A stretch of 64,000 nucleotides of DNA from Cetorhinus maximus (taxonomy: Eukaryota). A program made the position numbers and the translations under genes. Numbering within the stretch: the stretch's first letter is position 1; each line of letters begins with the position of its first letter. The stretch lies in NCBI RefSeq assembly GCF_964194155.1, contig NC_135901.1:25792001-25856000 (forward strand), read 5' to 3'. The notes beneath the pieces are model-generated. The model saw only the letters and a program-made list of their open reading frames with translations. It did not search any database and was not told where the DNA came from. This document shows positions 25,565-59,075 of this stretch, in pieces.

Positions 25565-25701
25565 GTTCTGTTGAAGGGCCATGAGGATTCGAAACGTCGA
25601 CTCTTTTCTTCTCCACCGATGCTGCCAGACCTGCTGAGTTTTTCCAGGTAATTCTGTTTTTGTTTTGGATTTCCAGCATCGCAGTAGTTTTTTGTTTTTA
25701 T
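25565..25701 (+). mobile_element. Short PLE insertion consisting of hammerhead and tail
   Basis: GTT-CTGTTGA-AGGGCC(ATGAG)GATTC-GAAACGTC-GACT followed by the PLE tail. Imperfect 11-bp TSD CCA(C/T)CTGAGAG. Confidence 0.85.
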
Positions 25702-25812
25702 CCATCTGAGAGACTTTGATCTCGAGACACTCTGAGCTATTGGCCAATGGGAACAGCTGGAAGACCGAAAGGGCTCGGGTCCTCCAATCAATCAGAGCTC
25801 GGCTTTTCTTCT

Positions 25813-26006
25813 ACAAAAACAGAATTACCTGGAAAAACTCAGCAGGTCTGGCAGCATCGGTGGAGAAGAACAGGGTCATGAGGACTCGAAACGTTAACTG
25901 ATTTCTTCTCCACCGATGCTGCCAGACCTGCTGAGTTTTTCCAGGTAATTCTGTTTTTGTTTTGGATTTCCAGCATCCGCAGTAGCTTTTAGCTTTTTGT
26001 TTTTAT
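25813..26006. mobile_element. Short PLE insertion with inverted tail duplication
   Basis: ~55-bp inverted tail arms around a partial hammerhead. 15-bp TSD CTCGGCTTTTCTTCT at 25798-25812 and 26007-26021. Confidence 0.88.
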
Positions 26007-26809
26007 CTCGGCTTTTCTTCTGTTCCCCAGCTCTCTCTGTACATGCGCAGTCTGCCGTATTTCCTCACATGCGCACCTCTCGCATCTCCGCTCATGCGCA
26101 GCGCCCTTCCACTCACCGCGCACATGCGCAGTCCCGTTCGCTTGCACGGCGGACAGAGCGATTTCCCCACCGCGGTAGTTTGTGGGAGCCGCGGCCGCCA
26201 TTACGGAGCAGGAGGTGAGCCTGACCCAAAGTGCATGTGGGTCTTCACCGGATTTGACTGTGACGCCCCCTTAACGAAGCGGTTTGTTAACTTTTGGCAT
26301 AAGGATTTAGACACCTAGGTGACATATTGTGGAGGCCAATAGATGACTGAAACTGATCTATAGAGTCCGCATCTTCAGAGGAGGAAATTGAGGAAAATTA
26401 ATTAGGGTTACAATCAATAGGGAGGAGGGACAGTTTGGTGGTCGTTTCGACGGTTCAATGGCGCTACTATTACCCAACATACCTTGCGGATGGGAATGTG
26501 CTCTATTCAGGCTGCAGGAGTCCAGTGCGTAGGCGCAGAGCTGGCCTGTCTCTGGAGCATGCGCAGTGTCACCTTGCTCAGGGCCCTCCGAGTGTGGGAT
26601 CGGCTTCAGGAAATGGGTGAGAGGCGGCGGGGCCGCAGGGGAGGAATGGAGCTGGGAGGTGCGGGTGGGGAAGCTGCATAAACACCTTGTGAAGGCCGCA
26701 ATCCCTGAATCAGACCCTGAAGGTCCCGTGTTTGCAGCCCCAGATCTTATTCCCCTGGATCAGGCCCAGGTTAACGGCCTCGGTCCAGTGGAGCGCGAGG
26801 GCGGCCATT

Positions 26810-28410
26810 TGTTTTATTCATTCACGGGACACGGGCTTCACTGGCTGGACCAGCATTTATTGCCCATCCCTAGTTGCCCTTCACAAGGTGGTGCTGAGCT
26901 GTCTTCTTTGAACCGCTGCAGTCCATGTGGTGTAGGTGCACCCACAGTGCTGTTAGGAAGGGAGTTCCAGGATTTTGACCCAGCGACAGTGAAGGAACAG
27001 TGATGTATTTCCAAGTCAGGATGGTGATGTTCCCATCTATCTGCTGCTCTTCCCCTTCTATATAGTAGTGGTCGTGGGTTTGGAAGGTGCTGTTGACGGA
27101 GCCTTAGTGAATTCCTGTAGTGCATTTTATGGATGGTGCGTCGGTGGTGGAGGGAGTGAATGTTTGTGGATGGGGTGCCAATCAAGTGGGCTGCTTTGTC
27201 CTGGATGGTATCCAGCTTCTTCAGTGTTGTGGGAGCTGCACTTATCCAGGCAAGTGGGGAGTATTCCATCACACTCCTGACTTGTGCCTTGTAGATGGTG
27301 GACAGGCGTTGGGGAATCAGGAGGCGAGTTACTTGTCGCACGATTCCTAGCCTTTGACCTGCTCTTGTAGCCACAGTATTTATATGGCTGGTCCAGTTCA
27401 GTTTCTGGTCAATGGTAACCCCCAGGATGTTTATAGTGGGAGATTCAGTGATGGTAATGCTATTGAACATCAAGGGGCAATGGTTGGATTCTTTCTTGTT
27501 GGAGATGGTCATTGCCTGACACTTGTGTGGTGCGATTGTTATTTGCCACTTGTCAGCCCAAGCCTGGATATTGTCCAGGTCTTGTTGCATTTGGACTTGG
27601 ACTGCTTCAGTATCTGAGGATTGATGAATGGTGCTGAACATTGTGCAATCATCAGCGAACATCCCCACTTCTGACCTTATGATGGAAGGAAGGTCATTGA
27701 TGAAGCAGCTGAAGATGGTTGGGCCTAGGACACTACCTTGAGGAACTCCTGCAGTGATGTCCTGGAGCTGAGATGACTGACCTACAACAACCACAGCTAT
27801 CTTCCTTTGTGCTACGTATGACTCCAACCAGCAGAGAGTTTTCCCCCTGATTCCCATTGACTCCAGTTTTGCTAGGGCTCCTTGATGCCACACTTGGTCA
27901 AATGCTGCCTTGATGTCAAGGGCAGTCACTCTCACCTCACCTCAGGAGTTCAGCTCTTTTGTCCATGTTTGAACCAAGGCTGTAACGAGGTCAGGAGCTG
28001 AGTGGCCGTGGTGGGACCCAAACTGGACATCAGTGAGCAGGTTTTTGCTGAGCAAGTGCCACTTGATAGCACTGTTGATGACCCCTACCATTACTTTACT
28101 GATGATAGAGAGTAGACTGATGGGGCGGTAATTGGCCGGGTTGGATTTGTCCTGCTTTTTGTGTGCAGGACATAACTAGGCAAGTTTCCACGTGGCCGGG
28201 TAGATGTCAGTGTTGTAGCTGTACTGGAACAGCTTGGCTAGGGGCGCGGCAAGTTCTGGAGCACAAGTCTTCAGTACTATTGCCAGAATGTTGTCAGGAC
28301 TCATAGCCTTTGCAGTATCCAGCACCTTCAGCCGTTTCTTGATATCACGTGGAGTGAATCGAATTGGCTGAAGACTGGCATCTATGAGGCTGGGGACCTC
28401 CGGAGGAGGC
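26810..28410 (-). mobile_element. CR1-group LINE 'type B' with RT ORF
   Basis: 365-aa ORF with 'LDIKAAFD', 'GVPQGSVLGP' and 'FADDCT'; family tail at 26810-26880. Confidence 0.92.
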
Positions 28411-28584
28411 CATGTTTGTTACACAGATACTGGGTGGGGCTTCAGGGTCCCAGTAACTAGGAGAGAAAATTATTGACTCATTGATTCTATTCTCAATCTG
28501 CACAAAGGAAATGGTGACAGGCCCAGGTTGACAGCCGGCATCTATAGAGCAGTAAGGTGCTGCAGGGCACACGTGGCCTTCCTA

Positions 28585-29090
28585 AGAACATCAGAAGTAG
28601 GAGCAGGAGTCGACCATTTGGCCCATTGAGCCTGCTCTGCCATTCATAAAGTCATGGTTGATCTGATTGTGGCCTTAACTCCACTCTCCTGCCTGCCCCC
28701 ATAATCCTTGACTCCTTTGTAGATGTAAAATCTGCTTAACTCATCCTTGATTCTTGACTCAGTCAATTCAATGACTCAGTCTCCACTGCTTTCTGGAGAA
28801 GAGAATTCCAATGACTAATGACCCTCTGAGGGAAGAAATTTCTCCTCATCTCAGTGTTAAATGGGAGATGCCTTATTTTTAAACTGTGGCCCCTCATCTA
28901 GATTCCCCAATGAGAGACACATCCTTCAGCATCTCCCCTGTAAAGAGCCCTCAGAATTTTAGATGTTTCAGAGTATAGTCCCAGCTTGCTCAACCTTTCC
29001 TCCTAAGACGAACCCTCTCATTCCAGGAATCAACCTCATGAACCTTCTCTGACTTGCTTCCAATACAAGTTTGTTTCTGTTTAAGTAATT
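28585..29090 (-). mobile_element. CR1 LINE 3' end
   Basis: Reverse-complement tail TACTCCTGCTCCTACTTCTGATGTTCTT-like and 'RRNFFPQRV' coding. Confidence 0.8.
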
Positions 29091-29120
29091 CTGGGCCAGG
29101 AGAGACGTTGTGAATTTCTA

Positions 29121-29228
29121 AAACAAAAACAGAAACAGAAATACCTGGAAAAACTCAGCAGGTCCGGCAGCATCGGCGGAGAAGAGCACAGCTGACGTTT
29201 CGAGTCCTCATGACCCTTCAGCAGAACT
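29121..29228 (-). mobile_element. Short PLE insertion (hammerhead and tail)
   Basis: Minus strand reads AGTT-CTGCTGA-AGGGTC(ATGAG)GACTC-GAAACGTC-AGCT (29190-29228), followed by the tail. Confidence 0.88.
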
Positions 29229-29764
29229 TCTATCCTGGACTGACAGTGGTGGATGTTAGAATCTCGTTTTACAGGGGGTTAGAAGGGGAGGATATACACA
29301 CAGCAAACTCAAACCAAGAAAATGTTTGTCTCTTCTGAATTTCTTACCTTGACTGACACATATAACTTTTGTAATCTCCTTTTACAGGCGCTTCCAGTGC
29401 TTTTGATATCTTTCCAGCTGCAGGCTCCAGCAGGAGATTTTAAATTTGAAAACGGTGAAATTATTTCAGAGGTGAGTACTATTGAGCATTCATCTACAAT
29501 TTAGACTTAGGGCTTTTAGTGCTGTGCTTTGGTTCCATGTCTCCGAGGCTGGTGTGACTCCTCTACTGTGGATCTGAATCCATGTCGATCCATTGCTCTG
29601 TTTCACCTCTGCCACTCCCCGTGCCCTCCCCCATTGTCTAACTTATTCTGCTTCTAATAATGGGTGTATTTTAACTATGTTTGGTCCTTTACTGTTATTT
29701 CCACCAACTCTGTCGAAATGAAGTTTTCTACCAGTGTCCACCCCCCAGCAATCTTTTTCAATTT

Positions 29765-30080
29765 ATTCTTTCATGGAGTTGCTGGCAAGGCCAGCATTTT
29801 TTGCCCATCCATAATTGCTCGGCCATTTCAGTGGGCAGTTAAGAGACAACCACATTGCTGTTGGTCTGGTCTCACGTGTAGACCAGAACAGGTAAGGAGG
29901 TCGGTGGAATGAACCAGATGGGTTTTTATGACCATGATCACTATTATTGAGATTAGCTTTTAATTCCAGATTTTATGAATTGAATTCACATTCCACCATC
30001 TGTCATGGTGAGATTTGAATCCCAGAGCATTAACCTGGGCCTTTGGATTACTACTGCAGTGACACTACCACTATGCCACT
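29765..30080 (-). mobile_element. tRNA-derived SINE (same family as 14108-14452)
   Basis: Reverse complement of the SINE head, core and type-B tail. Confidence 0.75.
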
Positions 30081-31049
30081 CCCCAGTGTGTTCACTGTTG
30101 ATTTACCAGCTTTATCTTCCCGTGGTCAGGAATTGTTTTCCTGCACTAGAGATAATTTTTCCTCCACCTCTGAGTGTACATTTCCCGTCAAATTTTGCTC
30201 AATTTTCATTCCACGTAATTCATTCTGCACATCCTGAAATATTAAATGCTGAGTATTTCCAGCATTTGCTCCTTTTATTTCTGATTACCAGCAGCTGCAG
30301 TATTTTGTTTTTGTTTTATTGCAGGCTTTGCTCACATAACCAAATCTAGAAACAGAGATGGACCAATTAAGAACTGATCTGTATTGGGTTGGGTGTTGGT
30401 TGGACAAGTTGCTCCCTGGCCTTCAGTGTTGAGCCTTTTACATGCGGTCATGGAATGATTGCAATATATAAGGAGACCATTTAGCCCATCATTCCTGTGC
30501 TGGCTCTCTGCAAGAACAATCAACAAGTCCCACTCGCCAACCCTTTCCTGATTGCCCAGCAGTTTTATTCTCTTCAGTGGCTTCAATTCCCTTTAGGTAT
30601 TGACATCATTTTGAGCTGGAGTGGAGATGGAGCAGAAGCTGCTGGGTTTAACCTCGAGAACCTTAGAACCCAGTCAGGTCCGGCAATTTCAGATGTGAAA
30701 TTGGCAAGGGAGGTAGATTCTCAGGGAGATCAGGTTGCACAACGGACACTGTCCATACAACGTAACAGGATATTGTTTCAGGAACAAGTATTTCTGTAGA
30801 TGGTTTTAATCTATTTTACATGTACATATTTTTAAAATGTATTCTTGGAGTTAGGGCGTCATTAACAAGACCAGTAGTTACCTGCCAATCCCCAGTTACC
30901 TGTGGAGAAGATGCTGTTTGACCTTCTTGAACCGCTGCAGTCTGTGTAGTGAAGATGCTCCCACAATACTGTTAGATAAGGAGTTACAGGTTAGACACCC
31001 AGTGATGATGAAGGAACGCTGGTGTATGTCCAAATCAACAGCAATAATG

Positions 31050-31870
31050 TGCATTTATTTAGCACCTTTAATGTAATAGAACATTCCAAGGCACAAAAGC
31101 ATCAAGCCATATAAGGGGATATTAGGGCAGGTGACCAAAATCTTGGTCAAAGAGGTGGGTTTTAAGGAGTATCTTAAAGGAGGAGATTGAGGTAGAGAGG
31201 CGGAGAGGTTTAAGGAGGAAATTCCAGAACTTGGCGTGTCGACAACTGAAAGAACAGCGACTGATGGTGGAGCCATTAAAATCGGAAAAGCTCAAGAGGC
31301 CAAAATTAGATGAATACAAAGATCTTGAAGGTTTATGTGGCTGGATAAGATTACAGTGATAGGGATGGTCGCAGGCACGGACGGATTTGAAAACAACAAT
31401 GACAAATTGAAAATGTTGGTTCTTTTTAAATTGCAACCTTTGTCAGTCAGTGAGCACAGGGGTGATGGGTGAACAAGACTTGGTGGGAATAGCAGATTGT
31501 AGGATCACCTCAAAATTATGGGGAGCGTGAATGTGGGAGGTTGGCTTGGACTGTATTTGGACAATTAAGGCTAGAGGTAACAAAGGAATGGATGACGGTT
31601 TCAGCAGATGAGCTGAGACTAGGGTGGAGTCAGGCGATGTTACTGAGGTGGAAATAGGCAGTCTCAGTGAAAATGTGGTTATGTTGTTGGAAGCTCAGTT
31701 TGGAGTGAAACATGACACATGAGGTTGTGAACAGTCTGGTTCAGCCTCAGACAGTCGCTGGCAGAGGGATGGAGTCAGTGAATAGGGAATGAAGTTTGTA
31801 GCAGGGATTCATCTTCCTAATATTTAATTGGTAGAAATTTCTGTTCACCCAATACTGGATGTCAGGATAG
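31050..31870 (-). mobile_element. L2 LINE 3' region
   Basis: 'FKSV...FWNFLLKPLRLSTSISSFKILLKTHLFDQDF' and an L2 tail ...ATTAAAGGTGCTAAATAAATGCA. Confidence 0.8.
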
Positions 31871-32282
31871 TGTGTGAGTTGGAGAGGAACTTGGAGATGA
31901 TCTGATCACATACACCTCCTGTCTTGGTTCTTCTGGGTGGTGGAGGTTGAGGATTTGGGAAGTTCTGTAAAAGTTCTGATATAGATATGTAAAATCCCCC
32001 TCCTTTGCCCCTACCTCTCTCTTTCTCTATCCATTTGCCTGTCTCTCTGTCTCCTCCCATAGAGGGCAGTGTCTTGTGTAGGTCCAGGCTGGGTAACAGG
32101 TTGCCTCCCCTGAAGGGCATTCGTGAACCAGTTGGGTTTTTATGACAATCCAGCTGTTTTCATGGTCACTTTTCCCTAGTGCCGACCCCACAAATTACCA
32201 AATTCGTTCAACTCAATTTCACAACTTATCTTTGTGGATTCTCTCTGAATCTCTTTTATTCTGTTTTAAATCAATTTCACAT

Positions 32283-33442
32283 GGTATTAGAAAAGGAGGA
32301 TTTGCAGTCGAGAAACTCAAACAAAAACATCACATCAGGATGTGATGAGGCCCCAGTTAATGGTAACTTGAGGCCCCAGTTAATGGTAACTTGATTATCA
32401 TTGGATTTTGAACCTGGAAGGAAAAAGCATTGTTCATAGCGGATGAAAATGTTCTCTGTGTGGAGGAGGCTTCAGCTCATCACCTGGCCTCATGACCTAT
32501 AAATTCAAATACACTGAGAAGGAACCATGGAAAAGTTGGGACTGTGAGGAGGGATTTAGTTAACCGTCTGAGCTGGAAACTCATTGATGCAGTCACACCA
32601 GCGAGAGGTCGTTCACCTGCTCTCTATGTTATATGGGATTCACTCTGTCATCCAACCGGTTGGCTCACTGGCAAATTCACACTGAGCAGAGATTGTTCAA
32701 ATGCTCCATATGTGGGAAGTGATTCACTCAGTCATCCCACCTTATGACACACAAACGGCTTCACACTCAGGAGAGTCTTTTTAAATGCCCAGACTATGAG
32801 AAGTGCTATAAAGGCTCCTGGGAAGTGATGTCCCATCAACGTGTTCACACTGATGAGAGACTGTTCAGGTGCTGTCACTGCGGGACTGGGTTCAGGAAAT
32901 CATCTGAACTCACTGTACACCAGCGAATTCACACTGGGGAGAGGCCATTCACCTGCTCCGTATGTGGGAAGAGATTCATTCAGTCATCCCAATTCATGGC
33001 ACACAAGCTAGTTCACACTGGGGAGAGGCCATTCACCTGCTCTGAGTGTGGGAAGGGATTCACTCGTTCATCCAACCTGCTGACACACCAGCAAGTTCAC
33101 ACTGACGAGAGACCTTTTGAATGCCCAGACTGTGGGAAGTGCTATAAAAGTTCCAGGGAACTGATGCGCCATCAACGTGTTCACACTGATGAGAGACCAT
33201 TCAGGTGCTCTTACTGCGGGACTGGGTTCAGGCGATCATCTCATCTCACTGTACACCAGTGAGTTCACACTGGGGTGAGGCCGTTCACCTGCACTGAGTG
33301 CGGGAAGGGATTCACTCAGTCATCTAACCTGCTGACACACCAGCGAGTTCACACTGGGGAGAGGCCGTTCACCTGCTCCAAGTGTGGAAAGGCATTGTCT
33401 CAGTCGTCCATCCTACTGAGACACCAGCGAGTTCATAAGTGA
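32283..33442 (+). pseudogene. C2H2 zinc-finger pseudogene (copy E)
   Basis: About 11 finger units with stops (~32560, 33260-33262). The splice acceptor is mutated (TTTCACAT instead of TTTCACAG) and the leader has a 23-bp tandem duplication (32346-32391). Confidence 0.88.
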
Positions 33443-33639
33443 TAGCTGGAATTGGATTTTGCTGTTAATAAAATCCAGGACTGAACGATATTCATTGCTG
33501 ATGTTAATAAACTCCAGGGCAGTAATAGGTGTTGATATTCTGCATAAAAGTCAAATAAACAAGCTTTCTGTTTAGCACAGAGTATGTTGTATCTTTTTGA
33601 TATCCCAAACACAAGTTGGTTCCATTTGTTCCCCATCTT

Positions 33640-34275
33640 CTCCATCCTCATCTCCAACAACAAGTGTGAGAGTTCATGGAGCTTCTTTGTCACTAAGATT
33701 GGGACAGTCCGATCAGCTGCCTCTGCTGCTTCCCTCCCTTTCACTAGCCCACCAGGACAAACTGTACCTAACGTTTCCCCTTGTCTGAGCCCTGAACTCG
33801 CACCTTTCTCCAGTTTCTCTCCTATCTCCCATCATGCCCCGTCAGAGCTGATTTTGTCCATGAGACCCACTTCCTCGTCCCTCAATCCTGTTCCCACTAA
33901 AACTGCTGACCATCCATTTTCCTCGTGTTGCTGATATTGCTAACAGTGCTCTCTCTCTTCTGGTTTTGCCCCTCTCATCTTTAATACACAATCCTCACCC
34001 TTCCTGAAAAAAATACAACCCTTGGCTCTGCTGTCTTTGCAAACTGCTGCCCAATCTTAAACGTCCCTTTCCTCTCCAAAGTCCTTGAACTTGGTGTCCC
34101 CCAAGGATCTATCCTTGGACCCTCCTATTTCTCATCTACAGGCTGCCACTAGGTGACATCATCCAAAAGCACCGTGTTAGTTTTCACATGTACACTGACA
34201 ACGCCCAGCTCTACCTCCCCAACATCCCTCTCCATTCCTCCACTGTTACTAACTTAAACTGCTTATCCAACATCC
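33640..34275 (+). mobile_element. L2 LINE fragment with internal deletion
   Basis: 'PFLSKVLE' is joined directly to 'GVPQGS-LGPLLF...YTDNAQLY'; the same junction occurs at ~57270 and ~62900. Confidence 0.8.
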
Positions 34276-34796
34276 AACTGCTGCAGTCCCAAGTGGTGTG
34301 GGTACACACACAGTGCTGTTAGGGAGGGAGTTGCTTTGCAAGTGAAAGGGACAGTGTCATCTCAGGGTAATCATTCAACATTTAAAGGGACACCACTGCT
34401 CTCTGTGCCATGGGGGCTCAAGGGATAGGTGACCATGAGAGTGTCCTCACTCGTCTGCCAATCACCCTCTGTCCTCGCTGACTGACACTGACCTCCCAGT
34501 CCAGCATCGCCTTGATTTTGAAATTCTCATCCTTGTTTTCAAATCCCTCCCCATGGCCTCCTCACCCCTCTCCCTATAACCTCCCACAGCCCCTAAAATC
34601 CTGTTGCCCACTCACTTAATCAAAGTGGAGTGAAGATCAGCCAGGATCCTATTGAATGGCAGAGCAGACCTGATGGGCCAAATGGCCTACTCCTCCTATT
34701 TCTTATGCTCACATGACCCTTTAAAGAATTTGAGATAGTAAATTGTCCGTTCTGAATTTATCTGTTGAACTTAGCTGATATGAACTTGTTTATCAG

Positions 34797-35667
34797 GGTG
34801 TTTATCGGAAGAGGGGAAGCCCAAACCGAACATCACATCAAGTCCCTCGATTCCCCAGGTCCTGAATATCGTGGGCCTTTGCTCGTAGAAAGGGGAATGA
34901 GTGATCACAGTGTGGACAAGCCTTACTCCTGCTCTGAGTGTGAGTGTTCCTTCAGCCGAGCCTCCAGCCTGAGGAGGCACAAGCGGGTCCACACTGTGAG
35001 CAACCAGATGCTTGCAGTGACTGAACGAGGAGATTCAGCTTCCCCTCCGAGCTGCAGATGCACAGACGCAGTCACACCGGGGAGCAGCTGTACGTGTGCA
35101 GTGACTGTACGAGGTGATTCAGCTTTCCCTTTGAGCTAGAGATGTACAGATACAGTCACACCAGGGAGTGGCCCTTCATCTGCCGGGTGTGCGAGCTGGG
35201 GTTCAACCAGTCGGGCCACCTCAAGATGCATAGGCGGTCCACACCGGGGAGAGGCCGTTCGTCTGCTCTGAGTGCGGGAAGTTATTCACCCAGCACTTGG
35301 CCCCACTGAGGCACTGATGCCTGCACACGGGGGAGAGGCCCTTCACTTGCCCCGAGTGTGGGAAGGCCTTCACTCCGGCATCCTTCCAGTGTGAGCACCA
35401 GCTCATTCACACTGATGAGAGGCCGTTCAAATTTCCCGACTGCCAGAAGAGCTTTAAATCGCCAAAGGTCTGTGAAAGCATCGACATGTTCACACCCTAG
35501 AGAGACTGTTCAGCAGCTCTCACTGTGAGAAGGCGTTCACACAGGCAGGAAGCCTCCTCAGACACCAGCGAGTCCACCACCGGAAAGGTCAGTTCACCTG
35601 CTCCGTGTGTGAAAAGAGATTCACCCGTTCCTCTCACCTGCTGAAACACCAGCAAGTGCACAATTAA
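34797..35667 (+). pseudogene. Decayed, GC-rich C2H2 zinc-finger pseudogene (copy F)
   Basis: 'DKPYSCSECECSFSRASSLRRHKRVH' followed by further fingers with stops and frameshifts. Confidence 0.8.
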
Positions 35668-35679
35668 CTGCAACAGTCA

Positions 35680-35995
35680 CAGAATCACAGCAGTGTTACA
35701 GCACAGACGGAGGCCATTCGGCCCATCGTGGCTGCACCAGCTCTCCAAATAATCAATTCCCTTAATGCCATTTCCCTGACTTCTCCCCGTAACCCTGCAC
35801 ATTCTTCCTTTTCAGATAACAGTCTAACTCCCTTTTGAAAGCCTCCATTGAACCTGCCTCCACTACCCTCTCAGACAGTGTATCCAGATCCTAACCACTC
35901 GCTGTGTGAGAAACGTTTCCTCGCCTTTGTTTCTTCTCCAATTATCTTAAATCTGCCGTCTGGTCCTCAATCCATCCACCAGTGGGAACAGTTTC
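35680..35995 (-). mobile_element. CR1 LINE 3' end
   Basis: Reverse-complement tail ACGATGGGCCGAATGGCCTCCGTCTGTGCTGTAACA. Confidence 0.75.
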
Positions 35996-38367: not shown

Positions 38368-38472
38368 GTTCTCTGAAAGAGGATCATACGGGCTCGAAAC
38401 GTTGACTGTGTTTCTCTCTCCTCAGATGCTGTCAGACTTGCTGAGTTTTTCCAGCATTCTCTGTTTTCTTCC
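38368..38472 (+). mobile_element. Short PLE hammerhead+tail insertion (diverged)
   Basis: CTGAAAGAGGATCATACGGGCTCGAAACGTTGACT followed by the tail CAGACTTGCTGAGTTTTTCCAGCA. Confidence 0.75.
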
Positions 38473-39496: not shown

Positions 39497-40258
39497 ATGG
39501 AAGGGGAGAGCAGCGAATACCATGTGGACAAACCTTACACATGTTCCGTGTGTGGACGTGGATTCAACCGAGCGTATGACCTGGGGAGGCACAAATGTAT
39601 CCAAAATAGGGAGAGGCCATGTAAATGTGGGGACTGCGGGAAGGGGTTCAGTTACCCCTCTGAGCTGGAAACTCATCGACGCATTCACACCGGGGAGAGG
39701 CCGTTTACCTGCTCTGTGTGTGGGAAGGGATTTGTTCGATCTTGCAATCTGCGGTCACACCAGCAAGTTCACAGTGAAGAGAGACTGTTCATCTGCTCCA
39801 TGTGTGGGAAGGGATTCACTCGATTTTCCCACCTGCTGAGACACCATAAAGTTCACACTGGGGAGAGACCCTTCACTTGCTCTGTGTGTGGGAGGGGATT
39901 TTCTGATTCATCCGACCTGCTGAAACACCAGCGAGTTCACACAGGTGAGAGACCGTTCACCTGCCCCAAGTGTGGGGAGAGATTCACTCAAATTTCTCAC
40001 CTACTGAGACACCAGCGAACTCATACCAGGGAGAGGCCCTTCAGCTGCTCCGTTTGTGAGAAGAGATTCACTCAAGCGTCCAACCTGCTACGACACCAGC
40101 GAGTTCACACCGGGGAGAGGCCGTTCATCTGCTCTCTGTGCGAAAAGGGATTTGCTGAGTCCTCAACCCTGCTGAGACATCAGCAAGTGCACATGGGAAG
40201 AGATCATTCACCTGCTCCATTTGTGGGAAGGGAATCACTCGATCATCCAACCTGGTGA
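39497..40258 (+). CDS. Tandem C2H2 zinc-finger protein (one atypical plus 7 canonical fingers), no KRAB (copy G)
   Basis: ATG at 39497 ([16 protein letters not shown]...), uninterrupted fingers; a terminal frameshift near 40193 removes a last finger. Confidence 0.85.
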
Positions 40259-40402
40259 AACACCAGCCAGTTCACACGTGGCTGTACTGCTTTGATTCTG
40301 CTGCTGTTTATCAGATTCAGGAATGAACCTTGTTAATTATGATATTGGGGAAGTGTTGTTGATGTTGCTGCTAACTACAGTAACGGGGCTGGAGGTGACA
40401 GA

Positions 40403-41715: not shown

Positions 41716-42597
41716 AGAGGGTAAAGCTGACCCAGCTGCTGCTGAGAGCTGACCACATGGGAACCGTCACAGAGCCGGCAGCAAAGAGCAGGAGGTTAGG
41801 GAAAAAAAAGCAGGATGAATGAATCCAATTGCAAAATGTCTAATGGCACATGTGGGAATCTGTCCAGCTTCTGTAAAATAATAATATAGGGAGTGGGGAG
41901 GGAGCACTGTCAGGCTGACCTTAACCATAGGGTGGCATGCCGTGTATCATTCCCATCTCCTGCAACACCCTATAAAATTAATTTGAACCCTCCCCAATAT
42001 TTCTACCTAACCTACCCACACGGACCATGGCCCCCAACTCAGTTGAGGCGCAGTCCATCCATCTACAATTGCTACACTTTGTTGCACCCTTTCCTAGGGC
42101 CGTGGATTCACCCCAGAATCCACTCCGCGCCCCCCCACTGCGCCCGCCTCGTCCCCCCCCCAAGGTGTCCACACCCTCAGCGTCACCTGAAAGCCGCTTT
42201 GAGAGTGCCTCATCACCTACCACTCCCAGAGGATCTCAACCTGCCTCCGCTTACTATTCCAGTGATCTCTCCTTCCCTGCGGGGACGGGAGAGCTTCTGC
42301 CCCCTGGAGCATGTGCTCCAGGAAATCCTCAGCCTTGCTTCCCATAGAGGGTAAGAACATGGCAGATAGAATATAATGTGGATGAGTGTGAGGTTATCCA
42401 CTTTGGTAGGAGGAACATGCAGAGTATTCCTTAAATGGTGAGAGATTGGGAAGTGCTGATGGCCAAAGGGCCCTGGGTGTCCTTGTCCTTGTTCACACAG
42501 CTAACATACAGGTGCAGGAAGCAGTGAGGAAGGCAAATGGTGTATTTGCCTTTATCACAAGGAGATTTGAGTGCAGGAGTAAAGAGGTCTTGCTGCA

Positions 42598-42825
42598 GTT
42601 ATGTAGCTCTTTTCACAGCCTCAGGACATTTCTGTGCTCCATAAGCCTCCACAAACAGCAAGGTGATCATGACCAGAGAGGCATCTGTTTTTAGTGAGAT
42701 TGGTTGAGGGTGGAACATTGGCCTCAACGGGGAGAACTTCCCTGCTCTCCTTCAAAATACTGACTCTGGGATCTTTCACATCTGCCTGAGAGGGCAGATG
42801 GGGCCCTTGGTTTAACATCCTCATA
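42598..42825 (-). mobile_element. DeuSINE fragment (duplicate of 40403-40632)
   Basis: Same SINE segment with the same downstream flank. Confidence 0.7.
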
Positions 42826-43139
42826 TCTTCTTCTGTGGTTCAGGGTCATCACTCTGTGAAGTCCCTTGGGCTGTTTCTCACTACATGAAAGGAGCTTTAT
42901 AAATGTGAGATGAATGCGACATCAGAGACATAGCTGTGCTGGGTAAAACTGAACCAGGTACTGCCTGCAACTGAGAGCTGAACACACGGGGACCATCACA
43001 GAGCCTGGAGCGAAGAGAAAAAGACCCAAAGAAAACCGGGATAAATGAATCTGATTTTAAAATGCCTCATGGCAGGCGGGCAATCTGTCCAGCTTCTGTA
43101 AAATAATAGTACAGAGAGTGGGGAGGGAGCACTACAAAA

Positions 43140-43645
43140 TACACTTTGTATCATCCTCACAACTTACTTTCCTGCTTATCTTTGTACCATTAGCAAATGT
43201 GACTACAATACAGTCAGTCCCTTCACCCAGTCATTGATATAAATTGTAAATAGTTGAGACCCCAGCACTGATCCCTGTGGCTGTCCACTAGTTACAGTTT
43301 GCCAAACTGAAAATGGTCCATTTATCTGCTCCCTGTTAGTTAACTAATGCTCTAACCATGCTAATATATCACTCCCAAAACCATGAGCTCTTGTCTTGTG
43401 CAGCAAGCAGCCTTCTAAGTCGCACCTTATCAAATGTTGTTTGGAAATTCAAATGCACTACATCTACTGGCACCACTTTATCCACCCTATATGTTACATC
43501 CTGAAAGAACACTAATAAATTTGTCAAACATGACTTCGCTTTTATAAAACGATGTTGACTCTGCCTGATTGTATTCGTATTTTCTAAGTGCCCTGATACT
43601 ACCTCCTCAATAACGGATTCTAGCATTTCCCAATGACAGATGTCG
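43140..43645 (-). mobile_element. CR1 LINE RT fragment
   Basis: 'IRQSQHRFIKAKSCLTNLL...LNFQTTFDKV'. Confidence 0.8.
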
Positions 43646-44265
43646 AAGGGATCCTGAAAGTCAAGTCTGTAACATTTTGGATCATGTCTTTGATCAAGCT
43701 TTGAACACTGCTCACGTCTCCTCTCACCCTGCTTCATTCTAATGAAAAGATTCCCAGTTTCTCTTGTTCCTGCTCATGGTAAAGAAAAGTTAGAACTAAG
43801 TTAGAAACTCAAACAGGAGCTTCACAGCGGACAGGTCACCATGAGGAAACATTTCATTTCATAATGACTTTTTCTAATCTGGAATACACTGCCTGAAAGT
43901 TTGATGGGAGAAGATTCAGTAGTAACTTTCAAAAGGCAATTGGAGAAATGCTTGAAGGAAAACATTGACAGGGTCATGGGGAAACAGCAGGGGAATGGGA
44001 CTAATTAGATTGGTCGACCAAAGAGCTGGCAAAGCCACCAAGGGCCGAATGGCCTCTTTTTGTGGTGTAGCCTCTCATCTGTGGCAATGAATCTCTTCAA
44101 TGGCCTTGACATCCTTCCTAGTGTCAGATCTCCAAAACTTGGCTCAATTTGTTAACTGCAGCCTGGTCAATGATTGAGAAGATTATTTTTTAAAATGTAG
44201 GGTAATGTTTTCAAACAGCGTGTAAACATCCACCAGCTTTAAAGAATTCTGTATCTAAACCCCTT

Positions 44266-45000
44266 GTAACATGGCTATGATATACTGAGGTAAGGGCTGT
44301 AATACAATGTGTATTATGGGATAAGGAAGTTTAGTCTGAGTTAGAAACTCAAAAAGCAGGTTCTTCACTGCAGACAGGTCACCATGGAAACACTGAGAAG
44401 ACATTTCATTCCACAGAATCGACTCATTGGAAACTCTAATCAGATCAGGGGAAAGGACAGAGTTTGTCGTTATTAACCAGAATAGAAACTTAAACCAAAG
44501 TGAAGAATAGAATAGGTTACATTATAATATTTGATGTTTATACCTTTAATTGTAAAACTATAAGAAATAATAGAATTAAGAGTAGGCAGGGGAGTTAAGG
44601 GAGAATTAGAAAATTACTGATGAAAAGTAACTGCTGGGATCCAGGGAATATGTCCTTGTAAATCACAGATTAGAGAAATTCCAGCTGGCGTTTCCCCACT
44701 TTCTACCAAAACCCAGCAGAGAAGACAAAAAAGAGTCAGGAGCCAGAGCTAGATCACCACAGGGTATAAAAGTGATGGGGTTCTGATGAAAGAAGGCAGT
44801 CAGGACTGGAGACACCAGAGATCAAGCTCAGGGTGCCTAAGGCTCCATCCAGCAGGCTGACCTCGTGTAAGTAACTGTGGACACATGGGACTTGGATGTT
44901 TACTCCGATTGATGGATCAATGTAAGATACAGCAGAGGACAGAGAATCTGCTCAGTTTGTATTAATGAAGTATTGAAGTTGCTGACATTAGACTTTCAGA
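44266..45000 (+). mobile_element. Probable LTR fragment
   Basis: Begins TGTAACA, has a TATA-like GGTATAAAAG near 44762, and a related piece at 43780-43865. Confidence 0.4.
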
Positions 45001-45121
45001 TCCACTGATTATTAAGACAAGGCGCTAACTTGAATGTTCCACCTCTTTACTGTTCTGATCTTCTACTCTTTTTAAACTATTACCATTCACAAACATCTAG
45101 GAGAATTTTGACAGTTTAGCG

Positions 45122-45380
45122 AGTGTCTGTAAATGTAGGAGAAATGGAGACTGGTCAGGGAGTGTCTGTAAATGGAGGAGAAATGGAGACTGGCCAGGGA
45201 GTTTCTTGTAAATGGAGACTGGTCAGGGAGTGTCTGTAAATGGAGACTGGTCAGGGAGTGTCTGTAAATGGATGAGAAATGGAGGCTGGTCAGGGATCAT
45301 CTGTAAACAGAGGGGAAATTGAGACTGGGCATGGAGCATCTGTAAATAGAAACTGGTCAGGGAGTGTCTGTAAATTGAGA
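45122..45380. repeat. Minisatellite, ~28-37 bp unit GTGTCTGTAAATGGA(GGAGAAATGGA)GACTGGTCAGGGA
   Basis: About 7 diverged tandem copies visible. Confidence 0.85.
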
Positions 45381-46777
45381 AAGGAAGACCGTTTAGAGAA
45401 TGCTGACAAAGGGATGGTAATTGTGATTTTTCAGGTAGTGTCTGTGACTGAACAAGAACTGGTGAGTGGATGGAGTATGTCTGTACAGGAAGGAGAATTG
45501 GTCCCAGGAAGCCCTTGGTTAGTTGTGGGAGACATTGCAGATGGACAGCTTACAGGGAGGAACAGAGTAATAGGACAAAGAGAGAGAGAATGCACATACA
45601 GAAAAAAAAGGAAATAAATGATTTGTAAAGTTGACTGGTGATCGCAAGGTGGGTCAATGAGAAAAGTGATAATAACAAAAGAGACAATCAAGAGAAAGTA
45701 GAGAAATAAAAGACATACAAATCTCCGAGGATGTGAGGACAGGTACAGCAGATGAACTAAGTTGGAGATTGTTAGAGGATATTATGATTTGTTGATGATT
45801 CAATGTTCCATCTACTCCTCATTCAGGAAGGTTCTAGAACTGTTAGGGTCAGATGTCACAGATTTATTCAGTGTATATATTATTTAAACCCACACACTGG
45901 GCAATGGTAGCTGGGGACTTGGCTACAATAAAGTTCCCAGCTCAGTGTTAAGGTTGATCAAATCCTTCAAACCCAAACTCTTGGTACAGTTCACATACCT
46001 CGATGTGTTTGTTTTCACATTATGTTGTGATATCAAAAGGTAACAACTCGCCCACAAGGGAGAAACTACTGAGACTCTCTAACTTTAGAATAACTCGACT
46101 ATTTAAACTGAGTTCTTCAGAAATACATTGTTATCATCCTTGGACTAATGGAATCAGTGTAACTTCCTATTTCATTACCCTATTGCATGTTCCTCTATTG
46201 TCATTTAATTGCTATTCTACAAGTGAAACATTTAATCCTGAGTGTTACAGAGTCAAAGACATTCACTACCCTTGTTGTAAATTCTAACTGGAAATATAGC
46301 GTTTTGCACAATTATCCTCCCTTTATAATTACTTCATAATCTCTCACTGAAAAGTTTCTAATTAATTTTCCAATTGACCAGGTTGTAATGTCATGTTAGA
46401 AGTTGCTGGAGCTGTGAGGGTCAGTCTGTGTTCAAACATTCAGGATCACCATCTTGGTCTGATCATGGAGCTCGACAATTAGAATTACTTGCAGATATTA
46501 CAATATTATAATTTTAAAATCACACTTCCCTCTTTAACAGAGGTTAGAAGTTAAATGAACAATGATGTAAAGACAAATCATTAGTGTTGTTGGATGAGCA
46601 TCAGGTCATTTCAACTCAGTTATAAAAACTGTTGCTCGTAAGATTAACCCTTTCCTTAAAGAACAAAACACCCCGTAGATTCACCCTCCTAATACCTCCA
46701 GACAATGACCCCAGCACTGAACACCTCACCATCAATTCTCAGACTGTCACTGGCCTCATCCCTTCTGGAAGAGAATC

Positions 46778-47120
46778 CAGTCATCGCAGAACTGAACCCA
46801 AACAGAGTCAGTACCTTCAGGAGAGGACAGAGAGGGAAACAGTCACTGTAGAGCTGAACCCAGTCAGAGTCAGCACCTTCAGGGGAGGAGAGAACGAGGA
46901 ACCAGTGAGTGTAAAACTGAACCCAGTCAGAGTCAGCACCTTCAGGGGAGGAGAGAGAGAGGAACCAGTGAGTGTAAAACTGAACGCAGTCAGAGTCAGC
47001 ACCTTCAGGGGAGGAGAGAGAGAGGAACCAGTGAGTGTAAAACTGAACCCAGTCAGAGTCAGCACCTTCAGGGGAGGAGAGAGAGAGGAACAAGTGAGTG
47101 TAAAACTGAACCCAGTCAGT
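46778..47120. repeat. 63-bp minisatellite (~5.5 copies) upstream of ZNF copy H
   Basis: CTGAAC recurs at 46792, 46854, 46917, 46980, 47043 and 47106. Confidence 0.95.
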
Positions 47121-47746
47121 GTCCATACCTTGAGACGAGGGAGAAAAGTTGCCCGGAAGGAAATATGTTGAAGATGGTGTTATGAGTTTGGATTTGAGCA
47201 CAGGGAAGAGAGATGGAACGTGGAATGGGGATTTATAGTTTTGGAGAAGGGAAAAGAGAGTTGTGGTGATCTGCACACGGGCAGGTTCTCTGTTCATTTC
47301 TCTGTGCCTCACAGTCTTGCGCTTTCCTCATCAGTTGCTCATAAGACCCTCCCATTTTCAACTTCAATCAACTCCATGGCTATGGATAAGAATCCATGAG
47401 GTGGCTTCCCATTGCCTTCCTCATATGTGTTTAGAGGAAACACAAGTTCCCTTCCTGAAGGATCCTCCCTCCTCCTGTAAGCAGTTGTTGTCCCTCAAGG
47501 TTCTAGTTCTTTCACCATCACCACTGAAAGTTCACTGGATCCTCCATTGGCCACGGCTCATAACCCTGAGCGTGGGACCCTTACCTGGGCCTGGAGCAAC
47601 TCACAAAATAGCCCCCGGATGTCTTAAATAACCTTATTACCCTAAAGAGAGGAAAGAAAGAGCAAAATGTTCCATAGAAACTAGAATGTTTTTCTGAATT
47701 TCTATCGTGTTCTTACAGTGATGACTTTTGTAAACCCCTTTCACAG

Positions 47747-48534
47747 GGGATTAGAAAGGGTGGGTTTACAGATGGGAAACTCAAACCAAATTTCACCCCA
47801 AGATCTGATTCATCAGGATCTGAATAACATCGGCCTTTAAATATAGAAAAAGAAAACACCAATCGCAATGTGGAGAGATAGCACACATGCTCGCTGTGTG
47901 GACGAGGCTTCAGTCAATCATTTGCTTTTTTAAAGCACAAACTCAGTCACTTCATGCAGAAACATGAATGTGTGGAGCATGAGAAGGGATTTGATTCTCC
48001 ATCGCAGTTGGAAACTCATCGATACAGTCACACTGGGGAAAGACCATTCACCTGCTCCGTGCTTGAGAAGGGATTCACTTAGTCATTCAGCCTGCTGACA
48101 CATCAGCGAATTCACACTGGAGCGAGGCCATTCACCTGCTCCATGTGTGGGAAGGGAATCAAATTTCATCTGGTCTGCAGAAGCATGAGATAATTCACGC
48201 TGACGAGAGACCGTTCCAGTGCTCTGACTGTGGTATGAGATTTAGGGACTCATTCCACCTACAGACACACAAACGCACTCACACTGGGGAGAAGCCATTC
48301 ACCTGCTCCGCGTGTGGGAAGGAATTCAGTCAGTTCACTGACCTGGTGGAACACCAGTCGGTTCACAGGGAAGAGAAACCAGTTAAATGTACCGGGTGTG
48401 GGAAGGGTTTCATTCATTCCTCCTGCTTGATGGTGCATCAGCGAGTTCACACCAGGGAGAAGCCATTCACCTGCTCCATGTGTGGACTTAATCATTCAGC
48501 CACCCTGCTGAAACATCAACTTGCTCACATGTGA
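47747..48534 (+). pseudogene. C2H2 zinc-finger pseudogene (copy H)
   Basis: Acceptor at 47746, family leader, about 8 finger units with TAG stops and deletions, family 3'UTR at 48540-48690. Confidence 0.85.
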
Positions 48535-50389
48535 TTCCTGGGGTTTGGATTCTGCTGTTATTGCTGCTGTTAATCACTTTCAGGACTGAACCATGTTCAT
48601 TCTGAAAGCCGGAGATTTTTTCCTGCTGATGTTCATAACCTCTGTATGTGGGATGGAGTTTAATATTCTGGATACATGCCAAATAAAGTAGAGTGAAGGT
48701 GTATTCTCTAAAGGATGACTTCCAGTAATGTAAGCTACCATGAATGTGGTGAATCACTGTAAAATAATTAGAAAATAAATGTGATGTTTGTATCTGGACT
48801 TTGTGTTTGGATTATTGTGGGAAATAGGTGGCACAGATACGATGGGTCTGTAGTATCGCCTCTGTCAGATGGGACGGACCCTCCTTTAAACTGCTTCTGA
48901 GAGGAGAGTGCTGCCCCCTAAAGCAGGATAAGCGAGGGCAGATCAGGGTCATACACTGATTATACTGCACCCAACAGGGACATCACAAATTGCCCCTTTT
49001 CTGAGGCAATCATTGCTGGAGTGACTGCAGCCAGAACATTGGAACAGGAGAAGGCCATTCAGCCCCTCAAGCCTGCTCCACCATTCAATGAGATCATGGC
49101 TGACCTGCACTTCAACTCAATTTTCCCATCTTTGATCCATTTCCTTTGATATCTCTATTTAAGAATCCATTGATTCCCATCTTGAAAATTTCAACCACAG
49201 CCTTTTGGAGAGATTGGTCCAGATGTTTTTTATTCATTCGTGCAATCTGGGTGTTACTGGCTAGGCCAGCATTTATTACCAATCCCTAATTGCCTTTGAG
49301 ATGGCTTGCCTTCCTGAACTGCTGCAGTCCATGTGGTGCAAGTACACCCACGGTGCTGTTACCTGAACAAGTTGTTTCTGATTTCACTGGACAGGTTGTG
49401 TATTAAACAATGACTCAATGTCTAACACAGACACCAGGGACAGAAATCCAGTTACCCTGAGAGAATACATGCAGCTGGACAGGGGTCACTGAACTGAATT
49501 CTGACCACAGAAAGTTCACTCAAACAAAACCAGACTGAACATGAAGTTAAAGCAGAAACAGAAGCAGATGTGATAGTTCCCAATCAATCACAATGTAAAC
49601 TGAAGTGGATTGAACATTGGAGCAGCTGGATTAGAATCATAATGCAGAATCAATGATAAACTGAGACAATTCATTTAAGGATAATGGAAAATACTGGAGA
49701 AAGATAGGAATGGTTTGATTCTGAGAGGGCGAGGAGAGGCTTGGTAGAGGATAGATAAGGATATGGTTTCTGCAGCAACTGTAGTTCTGCACTTTCACAT
49801 GGAAGGAGGTGGTGAGATGATGTAATTGTCACCATTAAGCTGCAAAAGTAAAATCAAGACTCCATTTGGACAATGAAGTGGATATACAAAGGAGAAGATC
49901 TGTCAGTTTGGCGGCAGTTGTAACTTTTAAGGTTATTAGTAAATAATAACTGTTCGTATTCCTGCATCTGAGTCAGAAACCGCACTGCGATCAGTTCTGA
50001 TGATTGGAGACGGCTCTCCAGCTCATTCTGGGTTGATATCATGCAGGATAGGTGTGTCCATTATGTGAATTGTGAGCTCATCAAACTCTCCCAGTTGAAG
50101 CTGGACCAACAGATCGGCTGGAATTAAATAGTCCCAGACATGGAAGAAGCGTTAAACAGCCTGTGAATTCTTCCATTAATTCACACTGTTCAAAGAGAAA
50201 CAATCACTACACTGTGTAATTTCCTGAAATAATCCCTGCTGTCTGTCCTGAATGAATCCATTTCAGTAACAAATGTTGAAATGTTTGCTCCACACCCACA
50301 GAGTTTCATCTGTTTAAAGCCACAAACAGGAAGGTCCAGTTTTCTCCTGGAGTTTGAGACAAATCAGCTTCCAAAATGATGCAGAGTTT

Positions 50390-50760
50390 CAGCCAATGAG
50401 GGAGACCCGGGCTCAGCCCCGCCCCCTCATTCACTCCGATTGGTTGGAGGACCAGCCGCTCTCGCTCGGCCCTCCAGCCCCGTCCCTTCTTCCTATTGGT
50501 CTGGAGCTGCCGTCAATCACTCCCCGGGCATTGTGATCTGGAGCACGCGCAGTGCGGGTGATGTCCAGGGACAGACACTTGTTTGTCTCATCTTCAGGCG
50601 GGAAGGAGGCGGATAAGCGGAGGCAGCGTTAGGGGCAGTGGGTGGGAGGGGAGGCTTCACAAACACCCAGTGGAGGCTTCAACACCCCCAGTAAGAAAGT
50701 ACCGGGCCCGCCTTTGCACCGAACAGAACGGCAGCTGCGGGCTTTCTCCCGGTGCCAGGC
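50390..50760 (+). promoter_or_regulatory. CpG-rich promoter/first exon of ZNF copy I
   Basis: CCAAT, GC box, ATTGG-TGGAGGACC...GGCCCTCCA-ATTGG module and NRF1-like GCACGCGCA; closely paralogous to 63405-63974. Confidence 0.7.
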
Positions 50761-50773
50761 CCGAGTGGACAAA

Positions 50774-51269
50774 GATAAAAACAAAAAGCTAAAAGCTACT
50801 GCGGATGCTGGAAATCCAAAACAAAATAAAAACAGAATTACCTGGAAAAACTCAGCAAGTCTGGCAGCATCGGCGGAGAAGAAATCAGTCAACGTTTCGA
50901 GCCCTCATGGCCCTTCAGCAGAACTGAAGCATAGTTTCAACAAGGGAGAAATATAAATTGGTTTAAGGTGGGTGGGGGGGAAGAGACACATTGAGGGTGT
51001 GATTAGCACTTTTCTCAGACAAAGACCACCACCTTCAACACCTCTTTGACCCTTTTGTCTCTGACATCTTTTGATTATCTGCTCACACCACACCCTCAAT
51101 GTGTCTCTTCCCCCCCACCCACCTTAAACCAATTTATATTTCTCCCTTGTTGAAACTATGCTTCAGTTCTGCTGAAGGGCCATGAGGGCTCGAAACGTTG
51201 ACTGATTTCTTCTCCGCCGATGCTGCCAGACTTGCTGAGTTTTTCCAGGTAATTCTGTTTTTATTTTGT
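50774..51269. mobile_element. PLE insertion forming a ~180-bp inverted repeat, with one hammerhead per arm
   Basis: Arms ~50821-51001 and ~51089-51269; hammerheads at 50887-50925 (-) and 51165-51203 (+). 14-bp TSD CCCGAGTGGACAAA (50760-50773, 51270-51283). Confidence 0.92.
51165..51203 (+). ncRNA. Minimal type-I hammerhead ribozyme motif with covarying stem II
   Basis: AGTT-CTGCTGA-A-GGGCC(ATGAG)GGCTC-GAAACGTT-GACT. Confidence 0.7.
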
Positions 51270-51387
51270 CCCGAGTGGACAAATGTGGGTTAATGAAGGA
51301 AATGCAGCAATGGATTTGTTAATGAGAAATCACCTTTAACTCACTTTACTGATCCTGGAGCAGGAGGAGTGAATGGTGTGAATTTCT

Positions 51388-51487
51388 GTTCTGTTGAAGA
51401 GTCATATGGACTCGAAACGTTAACTGTGTTCCCCTCCGCAGATGCTGCCAGACCTGCTGAGTTTTTCCAAGTATTTTTATTTTTGTT
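51388..51487 (+). mobile_element. Short PLE insertion (hammerhead and tail)
   Basis: GTT-CTGTTGA-A-GAGTC(ATATG)GACTC-GAAACGTT-AAC; 12-bp TSD GTGTGAATTTCT (51376-51387, 51488-51499). Confidence 0.88.

Positions 51488-57952: not shown

Positions 57953-59075
<1,123 letters not shown>

What the first reader, a model, noticed from the sequence alone, without database searches (positions are those of the whole stretch)
25565..51487. Short PLE copies start almost exactly at the 5' edge of the ribozyme: possible SINE- or retrozyme-like ~100-140-nt unit
Seen: four independent insertions (25565-25701, 29121-29228, 38368-38472, 51388-51487) begin within a few bases of stem I (GTTCT) and contain only hammerhead plus tail. 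The inversion point of the 1079-1266 hairpin also lies there. Random 5' truncation would not be expected to give such a consistent breakpoint. Inference: this is either a discrete non-autonomous ribozyme-headed element or a structure-determined stop or template-switch point of the PLE reverse transcriptase.
Basis: partly seen in the sequence, partly recalled or inferred. Interest (0 to 1): 0.72.

Follow-up and report, generated by a model that had tools for sequence, protein, structure and literature searches.

The report
Penelope stubs mark likely transcription start
These short repeats are end-pieces of a very common Penelope-type jumping gene, and about a quarter of its young copies begin at one spot just before its small ribozyme motif, likely because the copied RNA starts there rather than because they are a separate mini-element.

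Summary
The breakpoint is real. Numbering the first C of the hammerhead core as 0, exact genome-wide counts fall 31% between 0 and -6 (24,053 to 16,608) against 8% over six control bases. The mode is -3/-4, the 5' end of helix I. About 69% of copies run further, into a Neptune-type Penelope-like element (RT plus GIY-YIG). A discrete SINE or retrozyme is not supported. Short and long copies occur in the same subfamilies and mix on a low-resolution tree. Few copies start at the cleavage site, and most young cores lack the catalytic A6. A fold-based stop is unlikely: the RNA folds no better than shuffles, and a stop should lie 3' of the helix. A TATA-like box lies 28-31 nt before an initiator-like A at -4. 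Best reading (inferred, 0.6): reverse transcription primed at the two internal sites near the RNA's 5' end runs off at the transcription start. Much of the peak comes from head-to-head pairs. RNA starts could not be tested. This scan noted the same pattern before, here and in other genomes.

The parts
25565..25701 (+). Short PLE copy, -3 to about +134 (hammerhead motif with A6U core, plus tail); TSD 25554-25564 / 25702-25712
29121..29228 (-). Short PLE copy, -4 to about +99 (A6C core, no tail); TSD candidate overlaps its first bases
38368..38472 (+). Old, degenerate short copy; 5' start not established, no convincing TSD
51388..51487 (+). Short PLE copy, -3 to about +97 (A6U core); TSD at 51374 / 51486
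1079..1266 (.). Head-to-head pair of an older subfamily (canonical CTGAAGA core): arms +51 to -1 and -1 to +134, junction at about 1128; 14-nt TSD 1065-1078 / 1267-1280
14920..15785 (+). Long 5'-truncated copy running about 770 nt upstream of the core, through the 3' UTR into the stretch that encodes the end of the endonuclease in other copies; ends at +96
15657..15663 (+). TATA-like box (TATATTT) 29 nt before the inferred +1 A
   Evidence: sequence; spacing
15684..15690 (+). Initiator-like TCAGTTC; the A at 15686 is position -4, the inferred transcription start and the edge where short copies begin (also reads as a YAG splice acceptor)
   Evidence: role inferred
15686..15724 (+). Minimal type I hammerhead motif: helix I AGTT/AACT, core CTGCTGA (A6C), extra A before stem II, palindromic helix III, predicted cut after 15720
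   Evidence: sequence; architecture as in PMC4209133; Rfam gave no hammerhead hit
25813..26003 (.). Head-to-head pair with arms starting at +7 and about +35; 17-nt TSD (1 mismatch) at 25796 / 26005; does not fit the boundary
50773..51268 (.). Head-to-head pair with arms reaching -82 and -195; does not fit the boundary
52338..52451 (+). Old copy starting at about +20, inside the motif
30247..30317 (+). Old tail-only fragment, starting 3' of the motif
6343..6445 (+). Old, about 70% identical copy starting near the core

Best explanation
The short copies are end-pieces of an abundant Penelope-like retroelement, and they likely begin at -4/-3 because the element's RNA is predicted to start there, so a reverse transcriptase primed about 100 or 140 bases further down would run off the RNA's 5' end. 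Shown: the element is a 3,305-nt tandem unit with RT and GIY-YIG domains; copies end 3' at about +96 or +135; about a quarter of young core-bearing copies start in 0..-6; a TATA-like box and an initiator-like motif sit at promoter spacing around -4. Inferred: RNA polymerase II starts at A(-4) in the pLTR. The transcript carries a priming module near its 5' end and another after the ORF. Priming at the first gives 100- or 140-nt run-off copies; priming at the second gives long, randomly truncated copies. In head-to-head pairs both target strands would be primed, one at each site, and the two cDNA ends joined after losing a few bases. The daughters lack the TATA box and are probably dead ends. 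The ribozyme is a passenger that lies at the transcript's start.
For: (1) Sharp upstream edge with a downstream shoulder: step losses 6.8% (0 to -2, two bases), 4.7%, 10.0%, 5.7% (purine-only visible), 8.4%; control 8.2% over six bases. (2) Of 80 loci selected for a foreign base just before -4 or -3, 78 are true truncations, not point mutants. (3) Exact TATAWWW starts 28-31 nt before A(-4) in 90 of 106 mostly long copies, across subfamilies whose spacer sequence differs; older ones read TATAAAT at -31; chance is 0.3% per 4-nt window. At least 99 of 106 match YYANWYY with A at -4 (consensus recalled; copies are related, not independent). (4) No shared upstream sequence was seen in the and 63 listings; in 10 of 29 apparently simple insertions a TSD lies within 3 nt of the start. 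(5) In 45 head-to-head events with one arm at -3/-4, the partner starts in -9..+9 in 35, further 3' in 9 and beyond -10 in 1; 44 of 45 join a tail-bearing arm to a tail-less arm. (6) Internal priming at two sites that define the tail is shown in vitro for an Anolis PLE (PMC11167929); a pLTR transcription start is mapped in D. virilis Penelope (PMC2377424); a TATA plus Inr-like pair is noted in a rotifer pLTR (PMC3846280). (7) G precedes AGTT more often than A (614 vs 476; expected 44:56), as a copied cap would give; weak, because 17 of 25 such loci were flagged inverted.
Against: No RNA 5' end was observed: only assembled contigs were available and their RNA status is a guess. The mode is G(-3) at least as often as A(-4). 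In the 91-arm sample 23 of 27 boundary arms are in inverted pairs, and the non-inverted copies there show no peak (4 in 19 nt versus 9 in the next 42 nt). TATATTT is an imperfect TATA box. The same bases read as a pyrimidine tract plus YAG, and in D. virilis an intron ends at the 5' end of helix I while the start lies about 120 nt upstream. Arm lengths in inverted pairs look correlated away from the boundary too, which weakens point 5; one long partner (L271) was missed by that count. 14 of 29 apparently simple insertions had no TSD found. The control pattern covers one subfamily only (1,520 copies).
Confidence: 0.6

Rival explanations
1. The reverse transcriptase pauses or is released at the 5' edge of the hammerhead, because of RNA structure or bound PLE protein, on an RNA that continues upstream.
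For: [quoted passage not shown] The Anolis ribozyme folds only with the PLE protein, so a protein-bound barrier would not show in folding energies. About 69% of copies pass the point.
Against: Six stretches folded no better than shuffles (z -0.59 to +1.90). A polymerase moving 3' to 5' should stop 3' of a helix (near +35), not after crossing it (general knowledge); +26..+36 holds only 11 of 148 arms. It leaves the TATA/Inr spacing unexplained.
Confidence: 0.15
2. YAG at -5..-3 is a 3' splice site, and the short copies come from spliced RNA whose first exon is very short or host-derived.
For: Pyrimidine-rich tract plus YAG in nearly all long copies. The D. virilis intron ends at the 5' end of helix I (PMC4209133). 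14 of 29 apparently simple copies lack a nearby TSD.
Against: No common exon-1 sequence before the start. Inverted junctions have linkers of 0-3 nt in 33 of 45 events. G precedes AG more often than A, the reverse of typical exon ends (recalled). Loose ends at -4 in the three possible RNA runs are heterogeneous (agreement 0.47-0.51).
Confidence: 0.1
3. A discrete non-autonomous SINE-like master of 100-140 nt propagates on its own lineage.
For: Thousands of copies share one 5' end and several have TSDs. Two columns (+19, +30) lean towards short copies at p 0.004 and 0.014, uncorrected over 84 columns. Non-autonomous PLE derivatives are reported (PMC8557442).
Against: Short and long copies occur in each common subfamily. 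On a tree of 77 copies the label needs 18 changes versus 20.1 shuffled (71 of 500 as low; 45 of 64 forks unresolved). Both classes use the same two 3' ends. The short unit lacks the upstream TATA-like box.
Confidence: 0.07
4. The peak is made at the joining step: the imperfect palindrome CAG-TT-CTG and the helix I complementarity favour annealing of cDNA ends there.
For: 23 of 27 boundary arms are inverted; 49 of 80 selected loci are inverted; some linkers copy the element's own end.
Against: 29 of 80 selected loci had no inverted partner within 45 nt (3 of 17 re-examined had one further off), and several abut their TSD. Perfect palindromes at +25..+33 attract far fewer ends.
Confidence: 0.06
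5. Retrozyme: self-cleavage and ligation give a 110-140-nt circular RNA that is copied.
For: A minimal type I hammerhead motif is present; retrozymes derive from pLTRs (bioRxiv 2026.07.22.740005).
Against: Ends lie about 35 nt upstream of the cut site. Only 116 copies have a purine before +31, against an estimated 12,000 or more intact ones (about 1%, versus 5.7% at -5). Only 6 of 117 cores are canonical CTGANGA. No head-to-tail arrays of the short unit were seen in the loci read.
Confidence: 0.02

Closest known systems
Endonuclease-bearing Penelope-like elements, Neptune clade (PMC8557442, PMC3846280)
   Same: Single ORF with RT and C-terminal GIY-YIG, CxxC-type linker, partial tandem with pLTRs, frequent 5' truncation, inverted 5' copy, 30-40-nt tail on one arm only, TSDs, solo pLTRs.
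   Different: Those papers describe 5' truncation as variable; a strong genome-wide peak of 5' ends at one position was not found in the passages read.
Poseidon of Anolis carolinensis (PMC11167929)
   Same: Two internal reverse-transcription start sites that define the tail, both strands cut and extended, hammerhead just upstream and not needed for insertion in vitro.
   Different: There the ORF starts inside the hammerhead; here the ATG is at +171. The paper maps 3' ends of insertions, not 5' ends.
Penelope of Drosophila virilis (PMC2377424, PMC4209133)
   Same: Transcription start within the pLTR; hammerhead in the 5' region.
   Different: TATA-less internal promoter, with start and intron upstream of the hammerhead; here the inferred start is flush with helix I and has an upstream TATA-like box.
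Non-LTR retrozymes (bioRxiv 10.64898/2026.07.22.740005)
   Same: pLTR-derived, type I hammerhead, non-coding, short.
   Different: Defined as tandem repeats with a hammerhead in each unit; these copies are dispersed monomers or head-to-head pairs with mostly non-canonical cores.

Membership tests
EN+ Penelope-like element | Single ORF with RT followed by GIY-YIG endonuclease | tested here: met
   L300 minus strand: RVT_1 E 1.2e-6 and GIY-YIG E 4.5e-4, both just under Pfam's cut-off; this copy is frameshifted between them
EN+ Penelope-like element | Partial tandem forming pLTRs | tested here: met
   L300: hammerhead motif repeated at a 3,305-nt period around the ORF
EN+ Penelope-like element | Inverted 5' copy and optional 30-40-nt tail on one arm | tested here: met
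   44 of 45 head-to-head events pair an arm ending at +120 or beyond with one ending at +110 or before
EN+ Penelope-like element | Minimal type I hammerhead in the pLTR | tested here: met
   Architecture matches PMC4209133 (short helix I, extra base before stem II, palindromic helix III); core A6 is changed in most young copies; no Rfam hammerhead hit
Neptune clade | CX2-5CxxC linker between RT and EN | tested here: met
   CPRRRCNTC in L301-L303; feature from PMC8557442
Neptune clade | RT phylogeny places it in Neptune | not tested
   No tree with reference PLE proteins was built
Non-LTR retrozyme | Tandem units each with a complete hammerhead | tested here: not met
   Window and fetched loci show monomers and head-to-head pairs; not a genome-wide search
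Non-LTR retrozyme | Unit boundaries at the self-cleavage site | tested here: not met
   116 purine-preceded starts at +31 versus an estimated 12,000 or more (one subfamily; baseline estimated from 34 of 91 arms)
Non-LTR retrozyme | Circular RNA and self-cleavage | not testable with these tools
   Only contigs were available
SINE | Own lineage with diagnostic bases, distinct from the partner element | tested here: not met
   the tree has low resolution
SINE | Defined 5' end | tested here: met
SINE | Internal promoter that lets copies be transcribed again | not tested
   No pol III head was looked for; the TATA-like box lies outside the short unit

The most novel reading that the evidence does not exclude
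The stubs record a complete insertion mechanism: a PLE dimer primes both target strands on one capped, unspliced sense RNA, one strand at +135 and the other at +96, and runs off at the cap. Both priming sites lie inside an 89-nt 5' UTR intron (GT at +80, AG at +168, just before the ATG), so only unspliced RNA can be copied. That would explain why Penelope-like elements keep their introns. Thousands of solo pLTRs that retain the promoter would feed such RNAs in trans.
Probability: 0.15. Interest if true: 0.75.

Novelty: new member of a known kind. Interest (0 to 1): 0.42.

Why it matters
How Penelope-like elements make their inverted ends, which RNA strand they copy and what the hammerhead does are open questions in the papers read (PMC3846280 proposes an antisense template; PMC8557442 calls the hammerhead's role unclear). 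A family with tens of thousands of young copies, a single-base 5' edge and a strict pairing of the two 3' ends gives a direct test: one 5'-end sequencing experiment and one in vitro reaction would separate run-off from stalling. It also warns that such fixed-end stubs can be mis-annotated as SINEs or retrozymes. The element class itself is known.

Tried and rejected
Rfam found no hammerhead, only weak hairpin matches below gathering scores. Public runs were all assembled contigs with guessed RNA status. The depth step at the boundary looked larger in possible RNA runs than in DNA, but contig depth cannot show starts or levels, so it is not used. No splice joint was listed in the three possible RNA runs, neither into -2 nor across +80..+168; absence in contigs proves nothing. 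Loose ends at -4 were listed in all four runs (8, 6, 10 and 34 contigs; table cut), which shows the boundary in other samples, not a transcription start. A first diagnostic-base test on 216 copies was discarded as biased, because many short copies had been selected by an exact core pattern; it was repeated on 77 unselected copies. A small cluster at +28..+36 in the random sample was not borne out at +31. Searching up to about 1.5 kb upstream for distant TSDs in 17 copies gave chance-length matches, except where an inverted partner was present, so host-exon capture was neither shown nor excluded. Arms of close head-to-head pairs mostly share subfamily bases (1.3 versus 4.5 diagnostic differences over 64 pairs, some of them unrelated neighbours); this fits one template but also gene conversion. 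Paper searches returned nothing on a 5'-end peak in PLEs; most subscription papers are not in that library and no supplements were read.
Full report
Setting. The window is G000:C24:25792001-25856000 in a 3.99-Gb genome, inside a cluster of 84-nt repeats typical of C2H2 zinc-finger genes. A shark-like host is the wording of earlier scan notes and was not tested. Positions are numbered from the first C of the hammerhead core (0), so AGTT is -4..-1, the predicted cut is after +30 and the 3' strand of helix I is +31..+34.

The observation. Three of the four cited copies and the hairpin check out: starts at -3 (25565), -4 (29228, overlapping its TSD candidate), -3 (51388) and a turn at -1/-2 (about 1128). 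Clear TSDs of 11-14 nt flank 25565, 51388 and the hairpin. The 38368 copy is degenerate and its start is not established. At least five other window insertions start elsewhere.

The element. Upstream of long copies lie a 3' UTR of about 390 nt and the end of an ORF. L300 holds a full tandem, pLTR-ORF-pLTR, with a 3,305-nt period and the ATG at +171. It has RT and GIY-YIG matches just under Pfam's cut-offs, and sister loci show a CX4CxxC linker, so it is Neptune-type by that feature. One 39-nt anchor has 32,643 exact matches in the genome. Copies end 3' mainly at about +92..+104 or +130..+140, matching the two priming sites that define the PLE tail in Anolis (PMC11167929, parts 1-2 of 4 read).

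The 5' peak. Two samples were aligned to natural long copies: 57 arms kept from 135 profile hits in 138 random 10-kb loci (identity at least 0.90, score at least 40, not at an edge, 3' end at +60 or beyond), and 91 arms chosen only by the 3' anchor on contig 1. Of 148 arms, 44 run beyond -240 and 44 end in -10..+8. Rates per nt are 4.5 (-5..-2), 1.9 (-1..+8), 1.4 (-10..-6), 0.30 (-60..-11) and 0.65 (+9..+25) (inverted arms are not independent). Genome-wide nested patterns give 24,053 (0), 22,429 (-2), 21,364 (-3), 19,230 (-4), 18,140 (-5) and 16,608 (-6); the -3 and -5 values are sums and differences. That is a 31% loss against 8.2% for six control bases in one subfamily (1,520 to 1,395), an excess of about 25%. 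Of 80 loci with a foreign base before -4 or -3, 78 were truncations.

Against a simple reading. The peak is dominated by head-to-head pairs: 23 of 27 boundary arms in the 91-arm sample, where non-inverted copies show no peak. Among the 80 selected loci, 49 were inverted and 29 had no partner within 45 nt; 3 of 17 re-examined had one further off. Simple insertions at the boundary therefore exist, but their genome-wide enrichment is not measured directly.

Not a SINE or retrozyme. Short and long copies occur in each common subfamily and mix on a poorly resolved tree of 77 copies (18 changes versus 20.1). Starts at the cut site are about 1% against 5.7% at -5 by the same purine test, with an estimated baseline. 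Only 6 of 117 cores are canonical CTGANGA; the four cited copies are A6U, A6C, degenerate and A6U. Retrozymes are defined as tandem units (bioRxiv 2026.07.22.740005, parts 1-3 of 5 read).

Not obviously a structural stop. The RNA folds no better than shuffles, and the ends lie beyond the ribozyme rather than before it. A protein-bound barrier is not excluded.

What marks -4. An exact TATAWWW starts 28-31 nt before A(-4) in 90 of 106 mostly long copies whose spacers differ, and at least 99 of 106 match the initiator consensus YYANWYY with that A (consensus recalled; a listing gives 30-35 bp for metazoan TATA-to-start spacing). Starts or promoter motifs in pLTRs are reported for D. virilis (PMC2377424, passages and one section) and a rotifer (PMC3846280, passages). 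The same bases also read as a splice acceptor, and the D. virilis intron ends at helix I (PMC4209133, parts 1-2 of 4 read). But no common first exon is seen, and linkers at inverted junctions are 0-3 nt in 33 of 45 events.

Mechanism. Inferred: a transcript starting at A(-4) carries priming sites at +96 and +135 near its 5' end. Priming there gives run-off copies; priming at the downstream pLTR gives long copies. In 44 of 45 head-to-head events one arm carries the tail and the other does not, and in 35 of 45 both arms start within -9..+9. This fits priming of both target strands followed by joining of two cDNA ends. The one-sided tail is already known. RNA 5' ends could not be observed.

A further lead, unsupported by RNA. 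In L300 a CAG|GTAATT donor at +80 and an AAG at +168 would frame an 89-nt intron that holds both priming sites. Older subfamilies lack the GT and no joint was seen.

Verdict. A real, now genome-wide, fixed 5' boundary in a known class of element, most likely the transcription start. Earlier scan notes reached a similar reading on other windows and genomes. No paper on such a peak was found in six searches.

Noticed in passing
Genome-wide; window 25568, 29224, 51391, 15690: The youngest, most abundant subfamilies have non-canonical cores (CTGTTGA 48, CTGCCGA 36, CTGCTGA 15 of 117), so these elements spread with a probably impaired ribozyme.
   Followed up: partly
L300 minus strand, +80..+168 from the first core: Candidate 89-nt 5' UTR intron containing both priming sites; an upstream ATG at +51 opens a 10-codon ORF in unspliced RNA.
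   Followed up: partly
L301:75-665 (+): A 197-residue open stretch with an RVKR motif followed by a hydrophobic segment, resembling a cleaved envelope or fusion protein (recalled resemblance, no search); a PLE pair is inserted beside it.
   Followed up: no
L002, L003, L039, L255 5' junctions: Short target-derived repeats lie between the TSD and the element start, suggesting templated end-joining at the 5' junction.
   Followed up: partly
L034:4770-4990: Head-to-tail repeats of a 44-45-nt piece (about +4..+47) inside one inverted insertion, likely repeated slippage.
   Followed up: no
L232, L236: Young arms joined to or near fragments of older PLE families; in L232 the junction uses the AGTT/AACT complementarity of helix I.
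   Followed up: partly
window 8067-9226, 12810-13460, 23388-24292, 32434-33553, 39506-40285, 47967-48515, 53022-54712, 57899-59056: Arrays of 84-nt units typical of C2H2 zinc-finger genes, on both strands.
   Followed up: no
window 45071-45406 and 46770-47155: Tandem repeats of 28-40 nt and 63 nt units.
   Followed up: no
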